A stretch of 64,000 nt of DNA from Eledone cirrhosa. Taxonomy: Eukaryota. Made by a program: the position numbers and the translations under genes. Shown here in pieces: positions 1,242 to 23,727 of this stretch (the first letter of the stretch is position 1; every line of letters starts with the position of its first letter). The stretch covers positions 298,654,001 to 298,718,000 of the forward strand of contig OZ024742.1 in assembly GCA_964016885.1 (NCBI GenBank). Reading direction: 5' to 3'. The notes beneath the pieces are model-generated. The model made no database searches, was not told the DNA's origin, and saw nothing but the letters and a program-made list of their open reading frames with translations.

Positions 1242-1845
1242 TGAATATTGATTATTAATTTTTTTAACTTCATCCTAGAAGTCTAAACACTGTAACACAC
1301 TGACTCCCAATATATTCACCTCTGCTAAGATGCGGGTCCCTGTGAACATTTTCTCGCGCCACTCCTGGCTTGACTGTGGTCTGACATTAATATCGACCTT
1401 TCTTCCTCTTTCTATCTTCCTTCTTGTAACCATCAACCCTTACTTTTCTACTTCTCTCTTCCCTTCCTTCTCTTCTCCCCTCCTCCTGTCTTCCTCCCGC
1501 AGACTTATCTTCCTTCCCCCTCTTGCTTGCCTATATCTGACCAGTAGTAGTTGCCTTTCTTCTTTTAGCTGACATTCACCCTGGCTTCTCTTCTTCTTTC
1601 TTCCCCCTTCTTCTCTCTCCTTCCTTTCTTTCTTTCTTTTACCTTGTGTCATGAGATCGACGTTAACTTATGCTCCCATCCCTTTCTGTTTTCGTTCATC
1701 TGACCGGTAGTAGCATACTATAAAATTTAGCCACGTCACTCCAGGGCGACCGGCTGAGGTTGAAGGAACAGAATAGCGGTCGCCATCGGGTCTCGATTTT
1801 CAGCCCCATGGATTTTACCTATTACATTCACGTATTATATTTCGA

Positions 1846-1903
1846 ATACCTGATGATATCACCGGATTCATACGGAACCCGGTGATTGAAATGATCATAG
1901 TAT
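1846..1903 (+). ncRNA. Minimal type I hammerhead ribozyme
   Basis: atac-CTGATGA-t atcaccgg..ccggtgat t-GAAA-tgatca-TA-gtat; stem I atac/gtat, palindromic stem III AUGAUCAU. Confidence 0.85.
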
Positions 1904-1949
1904 AATAAACCTTTCAAGGATTTACACAAATCCAGCCTCCTGTCATTTC

Positions 1950-3021: not shown

Positions 3022-3205
3022 ATATTAAAGAGGTTAGAAAATTCAAAGTTCAACAGTTTAACATTTAATTATATAATAGTTCCGATTTGTTCTGTAATTT
3101 AAAGGTACTATGTGGCTGTTAAAACACCGGCCGCGCCCCGGGCCCAATGGCGAATTAAGCTACGCCGAGTATTTTCATTTACTGAAAGAAGGGGAAATTT
3201 ATTTT

Positions 3206-3244
<39 letters not shown>

Positions 3245-3247
3245 TTT
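3022..3247 (-). repeat. Right arm of inverted repeat (partner 1012-1241)
   Basis: Near-perfect reverse complement of 1012-1241. Confidence 0.9.
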
Positions 3248-3257
3248 ATATATAACT

Positions 3258-6024
3258 CATGGTGGGGTTTCTCTGTATATCCGTGAAGATGTCACACCAA
3301 TTGTACTGTTGACACATTCAAACTCAGTCTGTGACACACTGATAATACATATGAAGCAACTACAGACGGTAATATGTGTCACATATCGGCCGCCCGATGC
3401 CCCCAGTCATGAGGGTAAATTTGAGGATAGCCTAAGTAGGATAGAAGAGGTCCTTGACAAACTGGACCAGGGTCTCAACATCGTACTGCTGGGAGACTTC
3501 AACCTACCAAAGGTCAAATGGCCTGAGGGCCACCTCCTCCCTGGAATGACGTCAATAGAACAGAGACAGACGGAATCCCTGCTGGCCCTCACACACAGGC
3601 TGTTCATGGAGCAAGCAATACTCCTCCCAACAAGAGGCGAAAATGTCCTGGACCTCTGTTTTACAAACAACGAAGTGCTCATCCACAATGTAAAGGTGAC
3701 ACCAACAATTCTCTCGGATCATAACTTAGTAGAGCTAATGATATGTGGTCCAAGAGAACCAACAGAGACAAAACCACCAAGAAGCTCCGGGACGCTATCC
3801 AACCTTAACTTCTACAAGGCTAACTGGAAAAAGATAAAGAGTGAAATCCGGAAGCAAACATGGAGTGAAAACATCGCCACACAAGACACTAACACACAAT
3901 TTCAACACTTCATGACAACGATACACATCATATGCAAAAAGTGTGTCCCGGAGAAAGAGGCAAACAGACACAAAAATCTTATTCCCAGAGATAGGAAAAT
4001 CCTTATGAGACGTAGAACTAAACTCTCAAACCAGTTGAATAGTCAACAAAACCAAAACAAGAAGGAATCCTATTTGAAACGCGCACTACTTGACACCGAG
4101 ATTGCACTCAAACTTTCACATGAGAATGAGAGGGCAAAGAAAGAGAACAGGGCCATAGAAAACATTAAAACAAACCCTAAGGCCTTCTTTAAATTTGCAA
4201 AAGAAACTGCCTCAGTACACTGAAAGATTTGACCACTCTTCCACACGGACGGTTCATTAACCGAAAATCCCCAAGAGATATGTGAAATACTGAACGAACA
4301 GTACAAAAGTGTCTTCACATGTCCACTGAGGCACATGCAAATAACGAAGCCAGAGGAGTTCTTTGATGCCACAAGAAATGGCAACCATCAACTACATAGA
4401 CATAACGGAGGAGGATGTGGTGTACGCCATTGATGAAATTAGAACAGACTCGGCTGCTGGACCTGATGGATTCCCAGCAGTTCTCCTAAAAATATGTAAG
4501 CGGGCCTTAGCAACTCCACTGAAGATGCTCTTCAGAAGCTCCTTGGCTAGCGGTGTACTACCCAGGGAGCTGAAAGAAGGCACAATATGCCCTATCCATA
4601 AAGGAGGTAGTAGAGCGGAGGCCAAGAACTATAGGCCAGTCTCCCTGACGTCGCATATCAGTAAGGTCATGGAGCGAGTCGTCAGAAAGAAACTAATCAC
4701 TTTCCTCGAAGAAAATGACCGCCTGACTAGCACGCAACATGGCTTCCGCCCAGGAAGAAGCTGCCTTACACAGCTGCTACATCACTACGACTGGGTACTG
4801 AGACAACTACTAGACAGCTCACATGTAGACGTGATATATCTTGACTTTGCGAAGGCCTTTGACAAGGTCGACCACGGAATGATATGTCAAAAACTACACG
4901 GACTCGGCATAACTGGAGAGGTAGGTGAGTGGCTGCATGGCTTCCTAAGGGACAGAAGCCAGGCAGTCGCAGCAAATGGGGCCCTCTCGAGGGAAACACC
5001 GATAACAAGTGGGGTGCCCCAGGGGACAGTCCTGGGACCACTACTGTTTTTGGTGGCTCTCTCGGACATGCCCTCTGTGGTGCATGCAACAACATCCCTC
5101 ACTAGCTATGCTGATGACACTAAGGTGGCGCGGGCAATCAAAAACCCGGCTGACGCTGCCCTCTTACAGCAGGATCTGGATGCCATATACAGATGGGCGG
5201 AAGAAAACAACATGCAGTTTAATGCTGACAAATTCCAAGCCCTACAATACAGGCCTGCAAACACAAACACAAATATAGCGGAACACAGCTGCACAGGACC
5301 AGGAGGGACCGATATCCCCGTGTCAAAATCGATACGAGACTTGGGCATAGACATGAGCGATGATGCATCTTTTTCTTCACACATCATGAAGGTGGCGAGA
5401 ACAGGTAGACGATTCGCTGGCTGGATCTTGAGGACTTTCCTTACAAGAGATCGAGACACCATGTTGACACTGTGGAGGACTTTTGTCCTAAGCCGCCTGG
5501 ACTACTGCTCCCAGCTGTGGTCACCCCATAGTGTCAAACTAACCACGGAGCTTGAAGCAATCCAGCGAAGCTACACCAAGAGGATTGCCAAGATGAGGGA
5601 GACAAGCTACTGGGAGAGGCTGAAGGAACTGAACCTCTACTCCTTGGAGCGAAGACGGGAGAGATACGCAGTGATCTACATGTGGAAAATCCTGGAGGAA
5701 CTAGCACCAAACTTTGGCATTGGGAGCTGGACCAACCGTCGAACAGGACGTCACTGTGTGGTGCCAAAGGTCCCGTCTTCCACATCTAGAATAAGGAGCA
5801 GGTATTGCAATAGCCTGGGATTCAAGGGCCCTCAACTCTTCAACAGGCTGCCGAGGCATCTGCGAGACTTGCATGACGTGGAGGTGGATGTCTTTAAGAA
5901 ACATCTCGACACCTTGTTATCCAGGATCCCGGATGAGCCCACAGCAAGACACGAGGGAAACCTAAGGGCAGCAGCAACAAACTCCCTCCTACACCAGTGG
6001 CCAACCTATACAGGCTGGAGATAA
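3258..6024 (+). pseudogene. LINE ORF2 (APE-RT) disrupted by two TGA stops (~4221, ~4230) and a frameshift near 4365-4390
   Basis: ORFs 3309-4223 and 4363-6024; the first frame reads on through the stops (KI*PL...LNEQYKSVFT) before shifting into the RT frame. Confidence 0.88.
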
Positions 6025-6498: not shown

Positions 6499-7448
6499 CT
6501 AGCAGTAAAGCCCGGCGTTGCTCGGGGTCGCTCAGTAGCTGTGTTAAAGTTACAATGTTAAGTTTCTTTTTTGGCTTAAAAACTGTAGTGTCTACTGTGC
6601 AGACTTGCATGTGGTGTTTTTGATTAATATTCCCTCAACCAACAATATGCCTTATGAAGTTAAGAAAACATAACGATAACCCGAATGTTATAACAAAAGA
6701 GGATGCTGGGGATAGAAACTGCACTGGTTATTTATTAACAAAGATCGAAAATGTAAACACTGCAACGCAGACAAAAACATTAGCGTAACCAAATTATCAG
6801 TTATGTCTGTCTGCACGCCTATATCACCTCTCTGCACGACTGTCTGTCTGCACGCCTATATCACCTCTCTGCACGACAGTCTGTCTGCACGCCTATATCA
6901 CCTCTCTGCACGACTGTCTGTCTGCACGCCTATATCACCTCTCTGCACGACTGTCTGTCTGCACGCGTATATCACCTCTCTGCACGACTGTCTGTCTGCA
7001 CGACTGTCTGTCTGCACGCCTAACGACCAAATATTTGCTTGTTTTACGTAGTCTTTAAATAGACTTGTTTTCAAGTAAAAATATTGTTTTAAAATGCTTT
7101 TAAATGGAAATGAAGCAAAACGGAAGCTTAGTGTTCGAACTGATGAATTTTGCAGGTCAATATTTTGCTGGCTCGACAACTGTTCGTGTATTGTAATTTT
7201 TTACGTAAGACGCTCAATGTAAACAGAACAAAGGGAAATAACTGATAACTTACGCTCAAAAATCGATACATTATATTCGATTTCGTCAGATAGGGTGGGT
7301 CAATTTGAAATTTTTTTTTTCCGATGTCTTCGCTAGGGCTCAATGTACAAGTATAGCAATTTCGGTGCAATTCCGTGAGAGATTCTAAGAGGAGATGTGT
7401 GCCAAAAATCGATAGACAGACAGACAACCACAGTTTTATATATATAGA
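6499..7448 (-). mobile_element. Non-autonomous Helitron (~950 bp)
   Basis: Minus strand starts TCTATATATATAAAA and ends with GC hairpin cccgagcaacgccggg + ctttactgCTAG; no TSD; removal restores the PLE frame. Confidence 0.88.
6805..7021. repeat. ~37-bp minisatellite (ctgtctgtctgcacgcctatatcacctctctgcacga)n inside the Helitron
   Basis: About 5-6 units with partial deletions. Confidence 0.9.
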
Positions 7449-10400
7449 ATAATAGATAAATCTGACTCTTTTATAAGGAGAATCAGGTGGCGGGCATTCC
7501 ACTTTGATAAATCTAATATAAATGAAAATGTCTCGGACTTAGACAAAGTTTTCAAATCTAAAAGAAATCCACCCCCCAACAAACTTTTATTTGACTTTGA
7601 AAACGATATAATTTCTATCATACAAGGAGTCAAATTCAAGAGAAACTTCAAAGGCCAGGAATATCTGAAAGGCATTAAGGATAATATTGAGAGCTTAGAG
7701 AAAACTGAGAAGATCTTGGTGAAATCTGACAAGACCAACAACCTCTATGGAGTGCAAAAAGACATGTATAATGGCCTCATACTGAAAGAACTGAGGAAAA
7801 AGTACAAGGTAGCAGATAAGGCCGAGCTTGAGAAAATGAATGTTGAGGCATCTTGTATAATACATGAGTTGAAAATTGAGAACAGAACACAACCTTTCGT
7901 GCCCAGGAAACCGAAGATCAATATGAAAGATCACAAAAGAAATTTTGAAAATGACCTGCCAGTCAGATTGATTGCACCATCAAAATCGGACCTGGGTAAA
8001 CTAAACAAAAACATTCTAGACAGGGTGATACAGCAAATTAAAAACTTGAATTGTTTACCTAACTTGAGCTTGTGGAAGGGAACTGGAGAGGTTGTTGAGT
8101 GGTTTAAAGAAATTAAATATAACAATAATAATAAGTTTATTCAACTAGATATTGCTAACTATTATTCATCTATTACCCCTAATCTACTAAATAAGGCACT
8201 AAATTACGCATTCAAACATACAGACCTAACTAGCAATGAAATGCACATTATATTATCGGCTAGGAAAACATTGATAGAATTTAATGACCAACTATGGACC
8301 AGAGCAGATAGAGATAACAATTTCGACATTACTGTGGGATCATCCGACTCAGCTCAGGTAACTGACCTTGTGGGCCTATTTTTAATCAATTCGCTGCATA
8401 GGAAAATACCCGGTGCTACCGGAGGTTTACATAGAGATGACATGCTTTTACTTATTGAAAATAATAACTCTGAACTAAATAGAAAAAGAAAACAAATTAC
8501 ACAATTTTTTAATTACTTTAATCTAAAAATAGAAATTGAGAATAACCATAGAATAGTCAATTTCCTAGATGTAACATTAAATCTCAACACATGTCTTCAC
8601 TATCCATTTCACAAGTTGAATGAAAACTTAAACTATGTCAGCTTTAACTCTAACCACCCCAGATCTGTTAAAAATACTATAGTAAACTCTGTTCAAAAAC
8701 GTATCTCTAGAATCTCATCTAATAAAAAGATTTTCGACGAAAAAGCCCAGTATTACAATGAAGCGTTAGCTAGACCAGGATATAGTGATAAAACTATGTA
8801 CATAGATAATAATAGACAAACTAACCAAAATAACAACTATTTTAATTACGGCAACAACTTTAACAACTATAATAGAAAGCATTACAATAATTCCAAAAGC
8901 CAAAAAAGAAATAGAACTAGGAATATAATATGGTTTGCCCCCCCTTTCTCACTAAACATTAAAACCCACATCGCTAAACTATTTTTTAATGCTCTTGATA
9001 ATCGCTTCCCTAGAACACATAGGTATCACTCAATTTTCAATAGACATACTATAAAATTAACCTACTCATCCACCAAAAATTTAGCACAAAATATTAATAG
9101 AATAAATAATAGGAATTTAAAACCTAGCCAAAATACCGATAATAGCATAAATAATATCCAAGTTAACAAATGTAACTGTAGAGATAGATCTAAATGTCCG
9201 TTAAATAACAATTGCTTAGTTAAGAATATAATATACAACTGTAATGTTAAAACGGACTCAAATTCTTTTAACTATGTTGGTTCCACCTCGACAGACTTTA
9301 AACTTCGCTATAATAACCACAAGATTTCTTTCACAGATCCAAGCAAAAAATCTTCAACAGCGCTATCAGGCTTACTCTGGCAACTTAGGCATGATAACGT
9401 TGGATATTCGACGGCTTGGAATATAGTCTCAAGAGGGATTCCTTTTAATTCATCCTCTGAGACATGTGACCTCTGCGCGGAGGAGATATTCTTTATACTA
9501 AAATCTAAAAATTCCCTTAATTTACGGACAAATTTATTCAGTTGCTGCAGAAATAGATTGAACTCAACTTTTAAATATAAATATAAATTTAAAATGTAGT
9601 ATATTTAGTTTGATTTATAATTACTTATGAAACTCGCCGATAAATCTTTCGATTTCTTTTTTATTTTAAACATTCTTCATGAATAATTAAACTACCCTAA
9701 AAGCTGATGCTCCAAATATATCGAATAAATTTTACACTAGATAAACTTGTATATTAAATATTAGAACATCCTAAACTTTTGGAATGTTTTCTGCTAGACA
9801 GGATTTGGTAAATAATTTTTGGTTTTGTTTGCTTTTGATTCTGATGCTTATAACGAACTTGGCAATATATTGTCAATTAACTTTGAAGGGTTGATCTCTG
9901 TGGTTGATTTGCGGGGCATACTATGTTTTATTTTTATTTTTAATATTTTTAATATTTTTATTTTTAATATTTTTTTGATTTTCTGTTTATTTTTTTGTTT
10001 CTGATATTTTTATTGATATATTGATATCTGTTCTCTATTTATGCTTGAACGATAATCATGTAGAGTAAAGACAAGAATAGTATTGTTAAAATTAATGTAG
10101 ACTCTATATATATTTGTGTGTATGTACACATATATGTATACTAGAATTTTTATAGCACAATGAGAATGTTTTCGTGTGAAATAGGAATTTGCAGAGCTCA
10201 TCACGTAAATTCACATGGATGTCTATAGTATCGAATCTGGGATAACCTTCTATTTTATCTCAACTCTGATATAAACCTAGGAATTTTAAACTAGACATAT
10301 GATCATTATTTTTCACACATTATTGATACGTGTCTCATTCATGAATACTGATATTTACATTATAATGCCTGATTTATACGAATTGATATTTTTACATTGA

Positions 10401-12126: not shown

Positions 12127-12198
12127 ATAAATAACAAAGAACGCCTATAGCATATGCATATCTTTACTTGCTAACATTGTTTCATCCGCACTATAAGT

Positions 12199-12657
12199 GA
12201 TCATTCTGAGAATAGCATCACCAGAGGTTGTAACTGTAGAAGGGCTTCAGGCTGCCCCCTGAATGGTTTCTGCCTTGTTAGAAACATAGTTTATGCGTGT
12301 GATGTGGTAACTACGGCGTCCACTAAAACCTATATAGGATCAACCTCCACCCCCTTTAAGACCAGGTTTAACTCTCACCAATGCACTTTTAGACATAATA
12401 AACTGAGGAACTCCACCTCCTTGGCAGCGTACGTCCATAATTTAAAAAATGCACGAACACATTACACACTTACTTGGCGGCAGGTTGCTAAATCCCATCC
12501 ATATACTCCTCATAATAGAGTATGTAACCTATGCCTTGCCGAATCCCACTCTATTATATTTGCTAAATGCCCTCTACTAAATAGAAAGTCTGAAATATTT
12601 TCCTCTTGCCCCCACCGAATATTAAGCTCTTTCTTCTACTTTAAACCTGTTAGCTAG
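12199..12657 (+). pseudogene. GIY-YIG endonuclease domain of truncated PLE
   Basis: GCNCRRASGCPLNGFCLVRNIVY...TYIGSTSTPFKTRFNSH...CNLCLAE...LNRKSEIFSSCPH*; no start codon, RT missing. Confidence 0.9.
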
Positions 12658-14460: not shown

Positions 14461-14871
14461 TTTATTTCATTCCTTACCCTGTATCACTATTATCTGTATA
14501 TTTTATATTTTATATGTAAGTTTGTTATATATTTCTTTATATTTTCTTATATATATTATAAGTCTGTTTTTCACCTATTTTTTACCTACTCCTACCTAAT
14601 CCTATCTATCTTATCTACTCTTGTCTGTTCTCTTATCCATGTGTATGCTTGTATGTAACTATATGTTGACAGCACCCCGCCCAACTGTGACTGATAGCAC
14701 CCCTTATTTTTCATTGTTTATTTTATTATTTTTATTTTTATTTTTTATTTTTATTTTTATTTTTATTCTTATTTTTACTTTTACTTCCTTAATATCCTTT
14801 ATCTTCTATTATTTTTCATTCTTCAATGTCTTGGATTTGTTATTGCTTGTATGGTATGTAATTAACCTTTA

Positions 14872-14917
14872 TGCTCTGATGAGTCCCACTTATAGTGCGG
14901 ATGAAACAATGTTAGCA
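14872..14917 (+). ncRNA. Minimal hammerhead ribozyme
   Basis: tgct-CTGATGA-gtcc cact tat agtg c ggat-GAAA-caatg-TT-agca; GUU cleavage triplet. Confidence 0.88.
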
Positions 14918-15051
14918 AGTAAAGATATGCATATGCTATAGGCGTTCTTTGTTATTTATTATATCACGGCTCTGTCCTCAGACATCGAGCTAACCTTATA
15001 CTGTCTGCTGGATAGGTGGAGTGTCATACACCCCTGATCCTCTCCCTAGTA

Positions 15052-17440
<2,389 letters not shown>

Positions 17441-18380
17441 TGGCGTGAATGACCGGATAAGCCTTCAGTCAGACCTACTGGCTGTTACCCAATGGGCGGA
17501 AAAGAACATGTTACTGAACGAAGACAAATTCGAACTGATCCACTTTGGAAAAGAGGATGCTCTGAAACTCCCGTACTCCCTTCCCCCCGGTGAAACTGTC
17601 GTGGCATCTAACAACATCAGAGACTTGGGAGTAACCGTGGACAGCAACATAAGCTGGGCCACGCATATAAGCAGCAAAGTTCACATGGCCCGCAGAACGT
17701 GTTCCTGTATCCTCAGAACCTTCCAGTCGAGAGATTCCCACACCATTATCCTTCTCTTCTCCTCTTTTGCCCGACCACACCTTGAATACTGTTGTCCACT
17801 GTGGTCTCCCCACACGAAACAAAGTATCATGTAACTTGAAGCTTCCCAAAGGGCAATCACGAAAAAGATAGATGGCATGTCAGACCATGACTACTGGGGT
17901 CGACTAGAAAAGCTGAAACTTTACTCACTCCAACGTCGCCGTGAGCGTTATATTATCTGCATGATGTGGAAAATGTTTCATCAGCACTGCCCAAATAATG
18001 TTGGCATCACCTTCAAAATACACCCAAGGCTTGGGCCCCGTGTTATCCGTCCCAAACAAAAATCTAAATCGCAACACATAACAACAATACGGCACAATTA
18101 TTTCACCTCAATGGGCCCTGCTCTCTTCAACATCACACCAGGACACGTCAAAACAGAAACTGACCACACAAAATTCAAGAAGTCTTTGGACAAATTACTC
18201 CAAGTAATCCCGGACAAACCACCTACACCCGGATATGTCACCGCAAACATTAATTCTCTTCTCGAATGGGCCATGGTGCCCAAATCCTGAGTTGAAAGAC
18301 TTCGCCAGGTGGTGCTATTAAGTTAGACATGGCCTGGGCCAATACTGGCCAAAACATTTCAAAGTTATTCAAAGTCAAAG

Positions 18381-18386
<6 letters not shown>
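17441..18386 (+). mobile_element. 5'-truncated CR1-group LINE 3' fragment
   Basis: LQSDL..W...[27 protein letters not shown], internal TAA at 17832, YWGRLEKLKLYSLQRRRERY; 3' hairpin and (AAAGT) tail. Confidence 0.9.
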
Positions 18387-18444
<58 letters not shown>

Positions 18445-18502
18445 TCTATTCTAGGGCGGGTAAAATTCCCGAGATCCATGGACGAGTTCTCTCCAGCGGT
18501 CT

Positions 18503-18683
18503 CTATGCAAACACCGAGGGGCTAACACCCTCTGGTGATGTCCGGTCTTCTACTCCAGCAGTCGCAAGCAGTGGGAGGGACAGTCCTGACGATGGCCAGT
18601 TAAGCCTGAAATGCATAGAAGGTTTTCCCCCTTGCTTCTGCTGGACATCACTAGAGGGCGTTAGCCCCCCGGTGTTTGCATAG
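18503..18683 (+). ncRNA. Rod-like hairpin with an apical minimal hammerhead (retrozyme candidate)
   Basis: 41-nt arms 18503-18543 / 18643-18683 (3 differences); inner ccagcag/ctgctgg and gcaag/cttgc; CTGACGA 18586-18592, ggc/gcc stem II, GAAA-tgca-TA 18608-18617. Confidence 0.7.
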
Positions 18684-19444
18684 CTACTGCTTCCTAAAAC
18701 CGTATTTCTTTGGAGATACGAAATATTTATACAAATTGTATCTGTTAGACACGCAGTGACTAACAACAAAATGTTTTAAGTCTGCATGTCTAACAATATA
18801 TGCGTAGCTTGTGAATAAAAGATTCAAGGGGTATCGCTGGCCGTGGCTATTCCTTCCAAACATGTTTTGTAATGTATCGTGTTATTGGCTAATTTCATCG
18901 TCTTATTGGCTAATCAACCAACGAAAGTAATTGTTGCTCAAAAGCGTTTTGGTTGCACGTTTATTTATCGTTTCGCTTTCGAATCTCTCTCCTGTATTTT
19001 GTCGTTTTATCATCAAAATATTTTTCTCGTCATATATGATTTTTAAAATTCATATTAACTATTTTTTTTCAGTTCGTTATAACATGCTTAGAATATTGGT
19101 TGTATCATATTTACTTGTATATATGTCCATATTATTGTTCGTTTTATGTTAGATTATTTTATTATTATTATGTTAGATTATTTTTTTTATTATTATGTTA
19201 GACTATTTGTATGGAATATTTAATTTTTATTAATTCAACTATAACAATTATTATGTAAAATATATTTATTTAATATTGATTGTTTTTTGTAGTTGTTTAT
19301 ATTAAAAGTCTGAAAATATTTTTATACATCTTACAATAATATTTATAAGGTCATTTATAAAACAACAATTATATAATATAATTACATTACAACGATAATT
19401 TATTATTAATATATATCTTGTTTAGCTAGAGTTATTACAAGCGC

Positions 19445-19530
19445 TGCTTGTAATAACTTATTTTATGCTCGTTGCTTGTAATAACTTATTTTATGCTCGT
19501 TGCTTGTAATAACTTATTTTATGCTCGGTG
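19445..19530. repeat. Three tandem ~28-bp units tgcttgtaataacttattttatgctcgt
   Basis: Direct reading. Confidence 0.88.
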
Positions 19531-19930
19531 TGTTTGTAAACAAACATCCCGAATTAAGCCGTACAATGTCTAGCAACCATCGTTGCTCATTTGTTCAACA
19601 CTGACAAAGGAACGCTGGCAACGTATACCTTCCTGCCAGTTGATTGAACGTCTGAAAGTATATACTTTCCTTATGCATAATAACGGCTGAGCAGCCTAAT
19701 TTGCATATCGAATGAGTTAATCGGCCGGGCGCAACGAAAACGATAAACGGAAAAAATGAAACGAAATTTCATTTCTCACTCTTAGTACGGCTGTTACTTA
19801 AATATAAGTATGTATACGTACATACATATATGTATACAGACGTACAGTAGTATGTATATATATATATACATACATACATGCACACATATATATATGTACG
19901 TATTGTTTCTCTGAACTGGTATATATGTAC

Positions 19931-21705: not shown

Positions 21706-23727
21706 TCATGGTGGTTTGAAGTTTGTAAATCTAGTAGCTATTTTATGCTTACAAAAAATGGATCTTTCTATTTTGCTGTTAAGCAGCATCTTATCGTACC
21801 TTATAATATGTAGCAGTTCTAAATTACAGAGCCTGCAGTGGGACATGCCGTTGCTGTAGGCTTTTGCTGCCGATCATTTTGACCGGCAAATCTTGTATTC
21901 TAGGTTTTTGTCCTTAAGTTGGCAGATTTTATTGGCGAGCGTTGTAGAATTCTCCAGTGCACGGTTTTTCATGGAGTGTCTGTGGACGTACCACCTTTGT
22001 TTAAATTTCCCAGCTGTGGAACATATGTAGTGCCAAGTAGAGTTGCCTGAATACACAGTACACAGGTATTCTATGCTCGAATCCAGGCATCTATTCCGTA
22101 GTGGGCACTTATCTGATAGGTGGCAATTACAGTTTGAGGTTTTATTTTGTGCATGTTCTTCATTGCGATTTTGTAAGTTGTAGTGAGTGGGTTGTGATTT
22201 AGGCCTATTAATGTTTTGTTGTGATGTGTCCCGATGTGTTTGTGGTTGTGATGTTGTTCTGTGTTTGTGTTTTCTATTTGGCGCTACGGTTTGCGTTGGT
22301 AGGATAGATTCCTTAGAGATGTTTTTGTGGTTGATCTTACGTATGTGCGATTCTAAGTTGGCTGCTGAAGAGTATGAACATTTTATAGTTTTTCTATCGA
22401 AGATTTTATGGTATCTGTGTAGTGTCGGGAAGTGTTTATCTATTAGTTTAAAGAATGCAGAAGGTAGTTTAGTTTTAATAGAGGAGTTGAAAATCGGATT
22501 GAACCATAGGTACTTTCTCTCTCTAGTTCTTTTATAGTTTTTGGGGTTCCTATTATTAGTGTTCGGTTCGGTTATTTTTGGTGTTCGTTGTCTAATCCTA
22601 CGCTTAGTCCTGTGCTTGTAATTTCTGTATGAGCTAGTACTGTTGGTGTCATTAGGTTTGTTGTTGTTGACATTATCTAGTGTGTATTGCAGCTTCTCCT
22701 TAATCCAGCTTTATGTAAAGCTAAGTTATAATAGTTGTGTGCTATATAAATTCCCACCACGTCTGTTATTTGCGCTGAGTCTTTAGATCCCATTGTGATA
22801 TCGAAGCTATTCTGTCTGTCATTTTGCTCCCAGTAATTATTTTCGAATTTAATGATAGTCCTTCTAGGAGCTAGTATCTATTTAATTTCGTCTGAGGTAA
22901 GGTCCGAATTGTTCTGGGCAAAGGTTAGCGCTTTAGTCAGGGTGACTGGGGAAATGGATGAGTAGTAGTCATTTATGTCGAATTGTATGAAGTTGTATGT
23001 TTCTCTATTGCTTATTTTGCTGAACCAGTCTATTGCTTCGTTAGTGTTTCCCCATAGCTTAATTATAAGTTTGTCCTTAATTTGTGCGAATACTCTATCT
23101 AATTCTGCCGATATCCAACTGGATGGGCATATTAATCTAATTGTGGGGTTTGTTTCAAAATTATTTTTGTGATCCTTAAGGTTGAATGTGGGATTACAAG
23201 GGGTTAGAGGCTCGGTTCTATCGGATATTTTCAGTTTTTTTTACTATGCTTAGTCCTTCCCTATTAATGCTAGTGAGTGCAGATTCAGTTGTTTTTTATT
23301 TTGTATTTTTTGTGCAATTCTCGGCGTTTAAAATTATTGTATGTGTTGAGGCTCATGGTGTATACGTTTGATGTTTTGTCTGCTTTTACTATAATACCGT
23401 TCGTGTTGCGTAGTTTATTTTAGTAGTGCATTGATGTCGTTTTGCAATTTGCTGTGATGTGTCCGTTTTTTTAATTTAGTTCCATTCATCATGTTCATAA
23501 GGTCAAGCTCGAAGGCATCGAGCTGGGGGTTATTTGGTGGGTTTTTACAGGATTTGAATCCGTATTTTCCTTAGTAAATTCTTCCGTGTTATTAGCGAGT
23601 CATTTGTCGTAATGGTATGCCTTCTATCGGATTCGACGGATGAAATCATTGGTACGTTGTATCATGCCGAATGTGTAGTCCTTCCTAGTAGGTATAGGTA
23701 TGTTCTTCAGTGACATGCCTTTTCCAT
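21706..23727 (-). pseudogene. PLE RT-GIY-YIG pseudogene with stops, frameshifts and an internal RT deletion
   Basis: Minus-strand translation: MSLKNIPIP..FIRRIR*KAYHY, KADKT, FDITMGSKDSAQITDVVG, WFNPIFN, CNCHLSDKCPLRNRC, FKQRWYVH, CRLC, CKH..FKPP*. Confidence 0.88.

What the first reader, a model, noticed from the sequence alone, without database searches (positions are those of the whole stretch)
18445..18720. Rod-like ~180-nt RNA with an apical hammerhead: retrozyme/viroid-like candidate
Seen: a GC-rich unit directly after (TA)n. Its 41-nt arms (18503-18543 / 18643-18683) differ only by transitions, which give G-U pairs on one strand or the other. The stem continues inward via ccagcag/ctgctgg, gcaag/cttgc and ggga/tccc, and the apex holds CUGACGA-(ggc/gcc)-GAAA-ugca-UA. 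No PLE ORF is nearby. Established: non-autonomous retrozymes are short HHR-bearing, highly paired units that can form circRNAs. Inference: this is a retrozyme monomer or an unusually structured pLTR. Stem I is only 2 bp (uc/ga), so this copy may be inactive or need a dimer.
Basis: partly seen in the sequence, partly recalled or inferred. Interest (0 to 1): 0.75.

Follow-up and report, generated by a model that had tools for sequence, protein, structure and literature searches.

The report
Decayed retrozyme with Penelope-made inverted arm
This is a shortened, damaged copy of a 323-base repeat with a hammerhead-ribozyme motif that occurs hundreds of times in this animal genome; its striking RNA 'rod' is not a family feature but a back-to-front duplicate, likely made when a Penelope-type transposon enzyme pasted it in, and complete copies likely carry their own U6-type promoter.

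Summary
The arms and hammerhead core are real; the 180-nt rod monomer is not. 18542-18741 is positions 87-286 of a 323-nt dispersed and tandem unit (561 exact 34-nt cores, 57 head-to-tail pairs). The family hammerhead is a canonical metazoan type I (6-bp helix I, 4-bp helix II, 1-bp palindromic helix III) with compensatory changes between subfamilies; this copy has two helix I pairs broken. The 5' arm (18503-18543) is an inverted duplicate of the unit's own downstream part, with a junction no other sampled copy shares; 2 of its 3 transitions give A-C mismatches on the hammerhead strand. 18445-18504 is the 3' end of an RTE-like LINE. Family insertions show the Penelope footprint: 64 inverted clusters, 42 with a ~38-nt tail on one end only, mostly in (TA)n. 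Full units carry an octamer box plus TATA like the genome's U6 genes; this copy lacks it. No RNA run was listed, so cleavage, expression and circles are untested. Verdict: new non-LTR retrozyme family, likely Penelope-mobilised; this copy likely dead. The scan noted the same footprint and promoter before, on other DNA of this genome.

The parts
18382..18444 (.). (TA)n microsatellite, the typical flank of this family
   Evidence: 103 of 156 outer 3' ends have (TA)4 within 30 nt against 417 of 3696 background windows
18445..18504 (-). Last 60 nt of an unrelated RTE-like LINE; not part of the ribozyme element; cuts off the inverted arm
   Evidence: 100% matches that go on into an RT-type frame; weak DUF6451 hit, E 0.001, under the cut-off; junction with the arm unique in the genome
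18503..18543 (-). Inverted duplicate of unit positions ~188-228 (the 5' 'arm' of the rod)
18542..18741 (+). 5'-truncated copy of the 323-nt unit, positions 87-286; 10 of 200 letters differ from the family majority; lacks the promoter-like block and the tail
18580..18623 (+). Type I hammerhead: helix I 18580-18585 / 18618-18623 (broken by C>A at 18582 and 18620), core 18586-18592, helix II 18594-18596 / 18604-18606 with U-U at its base, GAAA 18608-18611, palindromic AUGCAU, predicted cut after 18617
18555..18646 (+). Family-conserved stem that extends helix I (ccagcag/ctgctgg, gcaag/cttgc, ggga/tccc)
   Evidence: helices 1 and 2 paired in 93% and 87% of cells, one pair with a both-side change
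18742..19462 (+). Third, unrelated dispersed repeat that bounds the copy on the right
   Evidence: 914 first-look candidates, sharp shared start

Best explanation
18542-18741 is a truncated, mutated copy of a 323-nt non-coding hammerhead repeat with hundreds of dispersed and tandem copies, and 18503-18543 is an inverted duplicate of part of it, likely made during insertion by a Penelope-like (PLE) reverse transcriptase/endonuclease. Inferred cycle: a full unit in tandem is transcribed, likely from an octamer box plus TATA (unit positions 32-42 and 75) that resembles the host's U6 promoters; RNA running through two units is predicted to self-cleave at both hammerheads (as a dimer through the palindromic helix III) to a 323-nt monomer that would circularise and so keep the upstream promoter inside the RNA; a PLE enzyme would nick TA-rich DNA and start reverse transcription at two internal sites ~38 nt apart (positions ~281 and ~319), giving two back-to-back arms with a tail on one end only. 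Shown: copy number, period, covariation, insertion geometry, promoter-like match. Inferred: cleavage, transcription, circle, PLE as the enzyme. This copy lacks the promoter block and has a broken helix I, so it is likely dead; its left arm was cut short where an RTE-like LINE end now stands.
For: 561 exact 34-nt cores, 0 for the reversed control; 57 head-to-tail pairs; period 318-327, 323 in 2 of 5 printed; a run of 12 tandem pieces on C2. Covariation in 55 copies: 91.8% cells paired vs 89.2+-0.3 shuffled, 74 both-side cells vs 30+-8 (0 of 500); 3 of 4 helix II pairs and helix I pair 34-77 switch between subfamilies while core columns stay. 101 of 114 copies that begin at unit position 1-5 are preceded by unit sequence, and none of the other 13 show a shared ORF flank (several are older-subfamily unit ends by eye). 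64 inverted clusters in 99 distinct loci; 42 of 64 have one long and one short end; of 187 outer 3' ends 48 lie at 278-282 and 81 at 317-319. This is the structure described for PLEs (bioRxiv 10.1101/2021.04.23.441226, passages) and explained by two RT start sites (PMC11167929). Pieces of one insertion share 14.8% (inverted) and 9.5% (tandem) of rare variants vs 1.5% between loci. 177 of 262 pieces span the cleavage site and only 3 of 144 5' ends lie near it (5.6 expected), so the template is not a cut linear monomer. Positions 1-70 differ at 1 of 70 between subfamilies vs 42 of 148 at 191-319; the box stands at -76 to -78 with TATA at -30 in 3 independent U6 loci and with one mismatch in the best U6atac hit; box+TATA in 0 of 20000 shuffles. 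Helix I/II pair probabilities 0.04-0.2 in this copy vs 0.88-1.0 in 5 of 9 full copies.
Against: No test of cleavage, expression or circles. Rfam finds no hammerhead family in this copy or in two intact ones. The both-side changes are a few events between 2-3 subfamilies: the count of pairs with a both-side change (7) is no higher than shuffled (6.8; 287 of 500). No autonomous partner was found; the one PLE-like family tested shares no end with the unit. Box-to-TATA spacing is 43 in the unit vs 46-48 in U6/U6atac, the motif pattern was written after seeing the sequences, the plain 20-mer test is only modest (9-40 of 200 shuffles as good, and one U2 upstream scored as well), and most lower-scoring U6 and U6atac hits lack the box. 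The young subfamily has a T6 run at the unit junction that should stop Pol III, so read-through has to be assumed; the old subfamily lacks it. Uncut linear multimers explain the read-through of the cleavage site as well as circles do. Loci were picked as best hits or as dimers, not at random; ends at 319 coincide with the end of my reference. Circular folds of 8 monomers are only moderately stable (z -1.3 to -5.1).
Confidence: 0.82

Rival explanations
1. The ~180-nt rod is itself the functional monomer, a viroid-like or rod-shaped retrozyme RNA.
For: Very stable fold; hammerhead core at the apex.
Against: Other copies carry a different sequence upstream of position 87; this junction is 1 of 63; the arm differences are private and give 2 A-C mismatches on the hammerhead strand; the hammerhead fold is a minor state here; both strands fold equally well, as a DNA inverted repeat would.
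Confidence: 0.02
2. The unit is the pseudo-LTR of an autonomous PLE not yet found, and the copies are stub insertions of its 3' end; no independent retrozyme cycle.
For: PLE footprint; PLE-like frames are very common here (48673 first-look candidates) and lie within the flanks of some loci; Xenopus retrozymes match pLTRs (bioRxiv 10.64898/2026.07.22.740005).
Against: 101 of 114 unit starts follow unit sequence, with no shared ORF flank among the rest; PLE-like fragments near copies differ in distance, strand and part; the hammerhead is canonical, not the minimal PLE type (PMC4209133). Only one PLE family was tested.
Confidence: 0.08
3. The element is a retrozyme, but the arm at this locus arose otherwise: a template switch by the RTE enzyme onto retrozyme RNA, or a later repair event.
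For: The arm abuts the RTE-like end with a 2-nt overlap and the junction is unique; on the minus strand the arm piece and the LINE end read in the same sense.
Against: Inverted pairs with the same divergent polarity are the commonest form of the family (64 clusters) without any LINE; the right end lies at the usual short end.
Confidence: 0.07
4. A MITE whose terminal inverted repeats are the 41-nt arms.
For: Long inverted repeat.
Against: The arms are not terminal: the family goes on beyond 18683 and only one arm is in the unit; copies are tandem and truncated.
Confidence: 0.01

Closest known systems
Metazoan non-LTR retrozymes (coral, mussel, axolotl; PMC7229834, parts 2-3 of 6 and passages; bioRxiv 10.64898/2026.07.22.740005, parts 1-3 of 5)
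   Same: Non-coding ~320-nt unit, GC 40-45%, one type I hammerhead per unit, monomers, dimers and arrays; helix III of 1 bp with a palindromic tetraloop as in HHR_Amex1; a U-U variant at the base of helix II as in HHR_Amex2.
   Different: Mostly dispersed two-armed insertions with a one-sided tail, which the parts of these papers that I read do not describe; a U6-like box plus TATA inside the unit; circles and cleavage not shown here.
Penelope-like element insertions (bioRxiv 10.1101/2021.04.23.441226, passages; PMC11167929, parts 1-2 of 4)
   Same: Partial tandems, inverted 5'-truncated copy, 30-40-bp tail on one end, microsatellite or AT-rich targets.
   Different: No ORF; canonical rather than minimal hammerhead; no partner PLE identified.
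Newt satellite 2 (PMC2220036 passage, citing Coats et al. 1994, which was not held; PMC7229834)
   Same: ~330-nt hammerhead repeat with an snRNA-type promoter; dimer-dependent ribozyme.
   Different: Newt promoter is reported as Pol II; here the match is to U6/U6atac (box plus TATA) and not to the three U2 upstream regions checked; copies are dispersed with PLE-type ends.
Viroids and plant LTR retrozymes
   Same: Hammerhead, high self-pairing.
   Different: Genomic repeat, type I not type III, no LTR structure; the rod is locus-specific.

Membership tests
Type I hammerhead ribozyme (canonical metazoan) | Core CUGANGA, GAAA, UH around three helices; helix I ~6 bp, II ~4 bp, III 1-2 bp with palindromic loop | tested here: met
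   Family. This copy keeps the core but 2 of 6 helix I pairs are broken.
Type I hammerhead ribozyme (canonical metazoan) | Compensatory changes in helices with an unchanged core | tested here: met
   few independent events (2-3 subfamilies); pair count not above shuffles
Type I hammerhead ribozyme (canonical metazoan) | Match to an Rfam hammerhead model | tested here: not met
   no hit at E up to 10, intact copies included; not a defining feature, probably due to the 1-bp helix III (inference)
Type I hammerhead ribozyme (canonical metazoan) | Self-cleavage; loop 1-loop 2 tertiary contact | not testable with these tools
   needs in vitro assay
Non-LTR retrozyme | 150-450-nt non-coding unit with GC under 50% | tested here: met
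   323 nt, GC 0.40-0.45
Non-LTR retrozyme | Tandem units with a hammerhead in consecutive units | tested here: met
   57 pairs, array on C2; the window copy itself is a single truncated unit
Non-LTR retrozyme | No coding part attached | tested here: met
   (101 of 114; no shared ORF flank among 13 others)
Non-LTR retrozyme | Expressed as linear and circular RNA | tested here: inconclusive
   no RNA holder listed
PLE-mobilised insertion | Inverted 5'-truncated copy next to partial tandems | tested here: met
   64 clusters in 99 loci
PLE-mobilised insertion | 30-40-bp tail on one end only | tested here: met
   42 of 64; end peaks at 281 and 317-319; cannot be seen at the window locus, whose left arm is cut
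PLE-mobilised insertion | Shared end or binding site with an autonomous PLE | tested here: inconclusive
   no match in 30 loci of one family; other families not tested
U6-type (type 3) Pol III promoter | Upstream box and TATA as in host U6 genes at like spacing | tested here: inconclusive
   box and TATA present; spacing 43 vs 46-48; absent from the window copy
MITE | Terminal inverted repeats shared by all copies | tested here: not met
Viroid-like rod RNA | Rod fold conserved across the family | tested here: not met
   branched circular folds, 55-65% paired; arm unique to this locus

The most novel reading that the evidence does not exclude
The family is a self-renewing small-RNA gene: an external U6-type Pol III promoter drives a hammerhead RNA, the ribozyme-made 323-nt circle carries that promoter inside it, and a Penelope enzyme copies the circle from two fixed internal start sites into both ends of a TA-repeat break, so each full insertion regains a working promoter. 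A second, unrelated ~493-nt hammerhead family next door has the same box and TATA at spacing 42, which points to a general design and gives direct genomic evidence that PLEs mobilise retrozymes.
Probability: 0.35. Interest if true: 0.65.

Novelty: new member of a known kind. Interest (0 to 1): 0.42.

Why it matters
The rod is a trap: Penelope-type insertion makes long inverted repeats around a hammerhead that look like viroids. The family matters more than the locus. The papers read propose PLEs as the movers of animal retrozymes from co-occurrence and pLTR homology; the one-sided 38-nt tail and two-armed insertions here predict two exact reverse-transcription start sites that can be tested in vitro, and the U6-like block predicts a start site and polymerase. 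The scan has already noted both points for other families in this genome, so this is one more case, not a first.

Tried and rejected
Rfam scans gave only microsatellite noise and no hammerhead. Run search: no RNA holder listed; the four runs are of unrecorded kind, contigs only, one study, so they say nothing on expression. Laid on the window they showed the LINE going on past 18504 and the unit past 18741, and the head-to-tail joint in X1 and X4, which tandem DNA explains; no contig spanned the window's own junction, so its assembly was not independently checked. No tRNA in 4 loci. Pfam and PDB named none of the PLE-like frames; the Atlas gave no result. RTE-retrozyme chimera family: rejected, junction occurs once. 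5' ends piling up at the cleavage site: not seen. Remnants of the unit's tail elsewhere in the window: none. Part (pair probabilities for L006) was invalid because that copy has a mutated core; redone, where L010 could not be scored, L026 scored low, L084 partly and L146 lost helix II. Rows dropped: duplicates of one genomic place, and 2 of 56 loci with a deleted hammerhead plus 4 duplicates before the covariation count. Five paper searches found no description of this family, of PLE tails on retrozymes or of a U6-type promoter in one; supplements were not read and may bear on this. The host was not identified; 'octopus' in searches was a guess.

Full report
Observation. The window lies on contig C3 of a 3.0-Gb animal genome; the host was not identified.

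The stretch is three things, not one. 18445-18504 matches the end of a separate repeat at 100% (878 first-look candidates, 40 scored) whose copies go on into an RT-type reading frame (weak DUF6451 hit), so it is the 3' end of an RTE-like LINE on the minus strand (clade label recalled). 18542-18741 matches a dispersed family at 92-95% (2589 candidates, 40 scored). 18742-19462 is a third repeat. The left arm, 18503-18543, is a reversed copy of the family's positions 188-228; other copies carry a different sequence before position 87. Its junction type occurs in 1 of 63 inversion junctions and its joint with the LINE once in the genome. Each arm difference is a private transition away from the family majority, and on the hammerhead strand two give A-C and one G-U. 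The rod is therefore a DNA inverted repeat of this locus.

The family. A 34-nt core pattern has 561 exact matches and its reversed control none. 57 places hold two cores 311-341 nt apart; the period is 318-327, 323 in two of five printed; one locus has 12 tandem pieces. In the family helix I is 6 bp, helix II 4 bp, and helix III one pair closed by a palindromic tetraloop, the canonical metazoan type I form reported to work as a dimer (PMC4209133 passages; PMC7229834 parts 2-3). An older subfamily about 80% alike switches 3 of 4 helix II pairs and one helix I pair while keeping the core; in 55 copies 91.8% of cells pair against 89.2+-0.3 shuffled, and 74 cells change on both sides against 30+-8, though these are few events and the count of pairs does not exceed the shuffles (2 of 56 loci with a deleted hammerhead left out). 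Rfam does not recognise it. The window copy differs from the majority at 10 of 200 letters; C>A at 18582 and 18620 break helix I, and pair probabilities fall to 0.04-0.2 against 0.88-1.0 in 5 of 9 full copies. Circular folds of 8 real monomers are branched, 55-65% paired, z -1.3 to -5.1.

How it moves. Of the clusters in 99 distinct loci, 64 are back-to-back inverted, 16 tandem only and 26 single; 42 of the 64 have one end near position 319 and the other near 281. Of 187 outer ends, 48 lie at 278-282 and 81 at 317-319; 103 of 156 run into (TA)4 against 11% background. Partial tandems, an inverted truncated copy, a 30-40-bp tail on one end and microsatellite bias are the described PLE structure (bioRxiv 10.1101/2021.04.23.441226, passages), and the tail equals the distance between two internal RT start sites (PMC11167929, parts 1-2). 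Pieces of one insertion share rare variants 6-10 times more often than pieces of different loci, as expected if both arms are copied from one template, though gene conversion could add to this. Insertions read through the cleavage site (177 of 262 pieces; 3 of 144 5' ends near it), so the template is a circle or an uncut multimer; my data do not separate these. 101 of 114 unit starts follow unit sequence and the rest share no ORF flank, so the unit is not plainly a pLTR. A young PLE-like family in the window (7416-9599; 94-98% identical copies) shares no end with the unit; the partner is unknown. The loci were best hits or chosen dimers, not a random sample.

Promoter. Positions 1-70 differ at 1 of 70 between subfamilies, against 42 of 148 at 191-319. 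They hold an octamer-containing box at 32-42, with TATA at 75. Three independent U6 loci of this genome have the box at -76 to -78 and TATA at -30, the best U6atac hit has it with one mismatch, and three U2 upstream regions lack it, as do the 12 lower-scoring U6 and 5 lower U6atac hits examined. Box plus TATA appears in 0 of 20000 shuffles, but the pattern was written after seeing the data, the spacing is 43 against 46-48, and a T6 run at the young subfamily's junction should stop Pol III. Newt satellite 2 is reported to use an snRNA-type Pol II promoter (PMC2220036 passage). The window copy starts at position 87 and lacks the block.

Expression could not be tested: no RNA holder was listed, and the contigs laid only confirm boundaries and the tandem joint.

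Comparison and verdict. It works like, and meets the tested features of, a metazoan non-LTR retrozyme; circles and cleavage are untested. It shows the PLE insertion features without a known partner. It is not a MITE and not a rod-shaped viroid-like RNA. Five paper searches found no description of this family, of PLE tails on retrozymes or of a U6-type promoter in one; supplements were not read. Earlier notes of this scan reached the same footprint and promoter readings for other families in this genome; I reached both before seeing them, and they are not independent support. New member of a known kind; interest 0.42.

Noticed in passing
window 19514-19916 (-); L004, L005: Piece of a second, unrelated ~493-nt tandem family with a type I hammerhead in other copies (not found in the window copy) and the same octamer box plus TATA at spacing 42 (box at 19706).
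   Followed up: partly
window 1838-1910 (+), 14866-14935 (+), 53527 (+) / 53237 (-): Further hammerhead-like motifs; the 1850 one folds with a long helix II (z -3.2) and a palindromic helix III; 53237/53527 form an inverted pair.
   Followed up: partly
window 7416-9599 (+): 727-aa frame with Penelope-like RT and GIY-YIG motifs (label recalled; no Pfam or PDB hit); young family with many 94-98% identical copies and open frames of ~750 aa; a candidate helper to test.
   Followed up: partly
window 12175-12657 (+), 21874-23240 (-): Further broken PLE-like frames, the second about 3 kb from the finding.
   Followed up: no
window 17440-18381 (+); 3186-6024 (+): 3' end of a LINE with a short-repeat tail just left of the (TA)n, 37% identical to the RT frame at 4345-6024.
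   Followed up: partly
window 18742-19462: Dispersed ~720-bp AT-rich repeat with a sharp start after a TAT and a terminal hairpin; class not determined.
   Followed up: partly
L130, L131, L140 and other loci: Older ~335-nt subfamily with G-C at the base of helix II and an AUC site; some copies have a 2-nt longer helix III loop; it lacks the T6 run at the junction.
   Followed up: partly
L199-L201, L214-L216: U2 and U6 genes share a short pyrimidine-rich box about 260-290 nt upstream; U2 and U6 lie in tandem arrays.
   Followed up: no
G000:C6:70.47-70.51 Mb (L125-L127): Repeated block holding retrozyme insertions and PLE-like frames about 1.2 kb apart.
   Followed up: no
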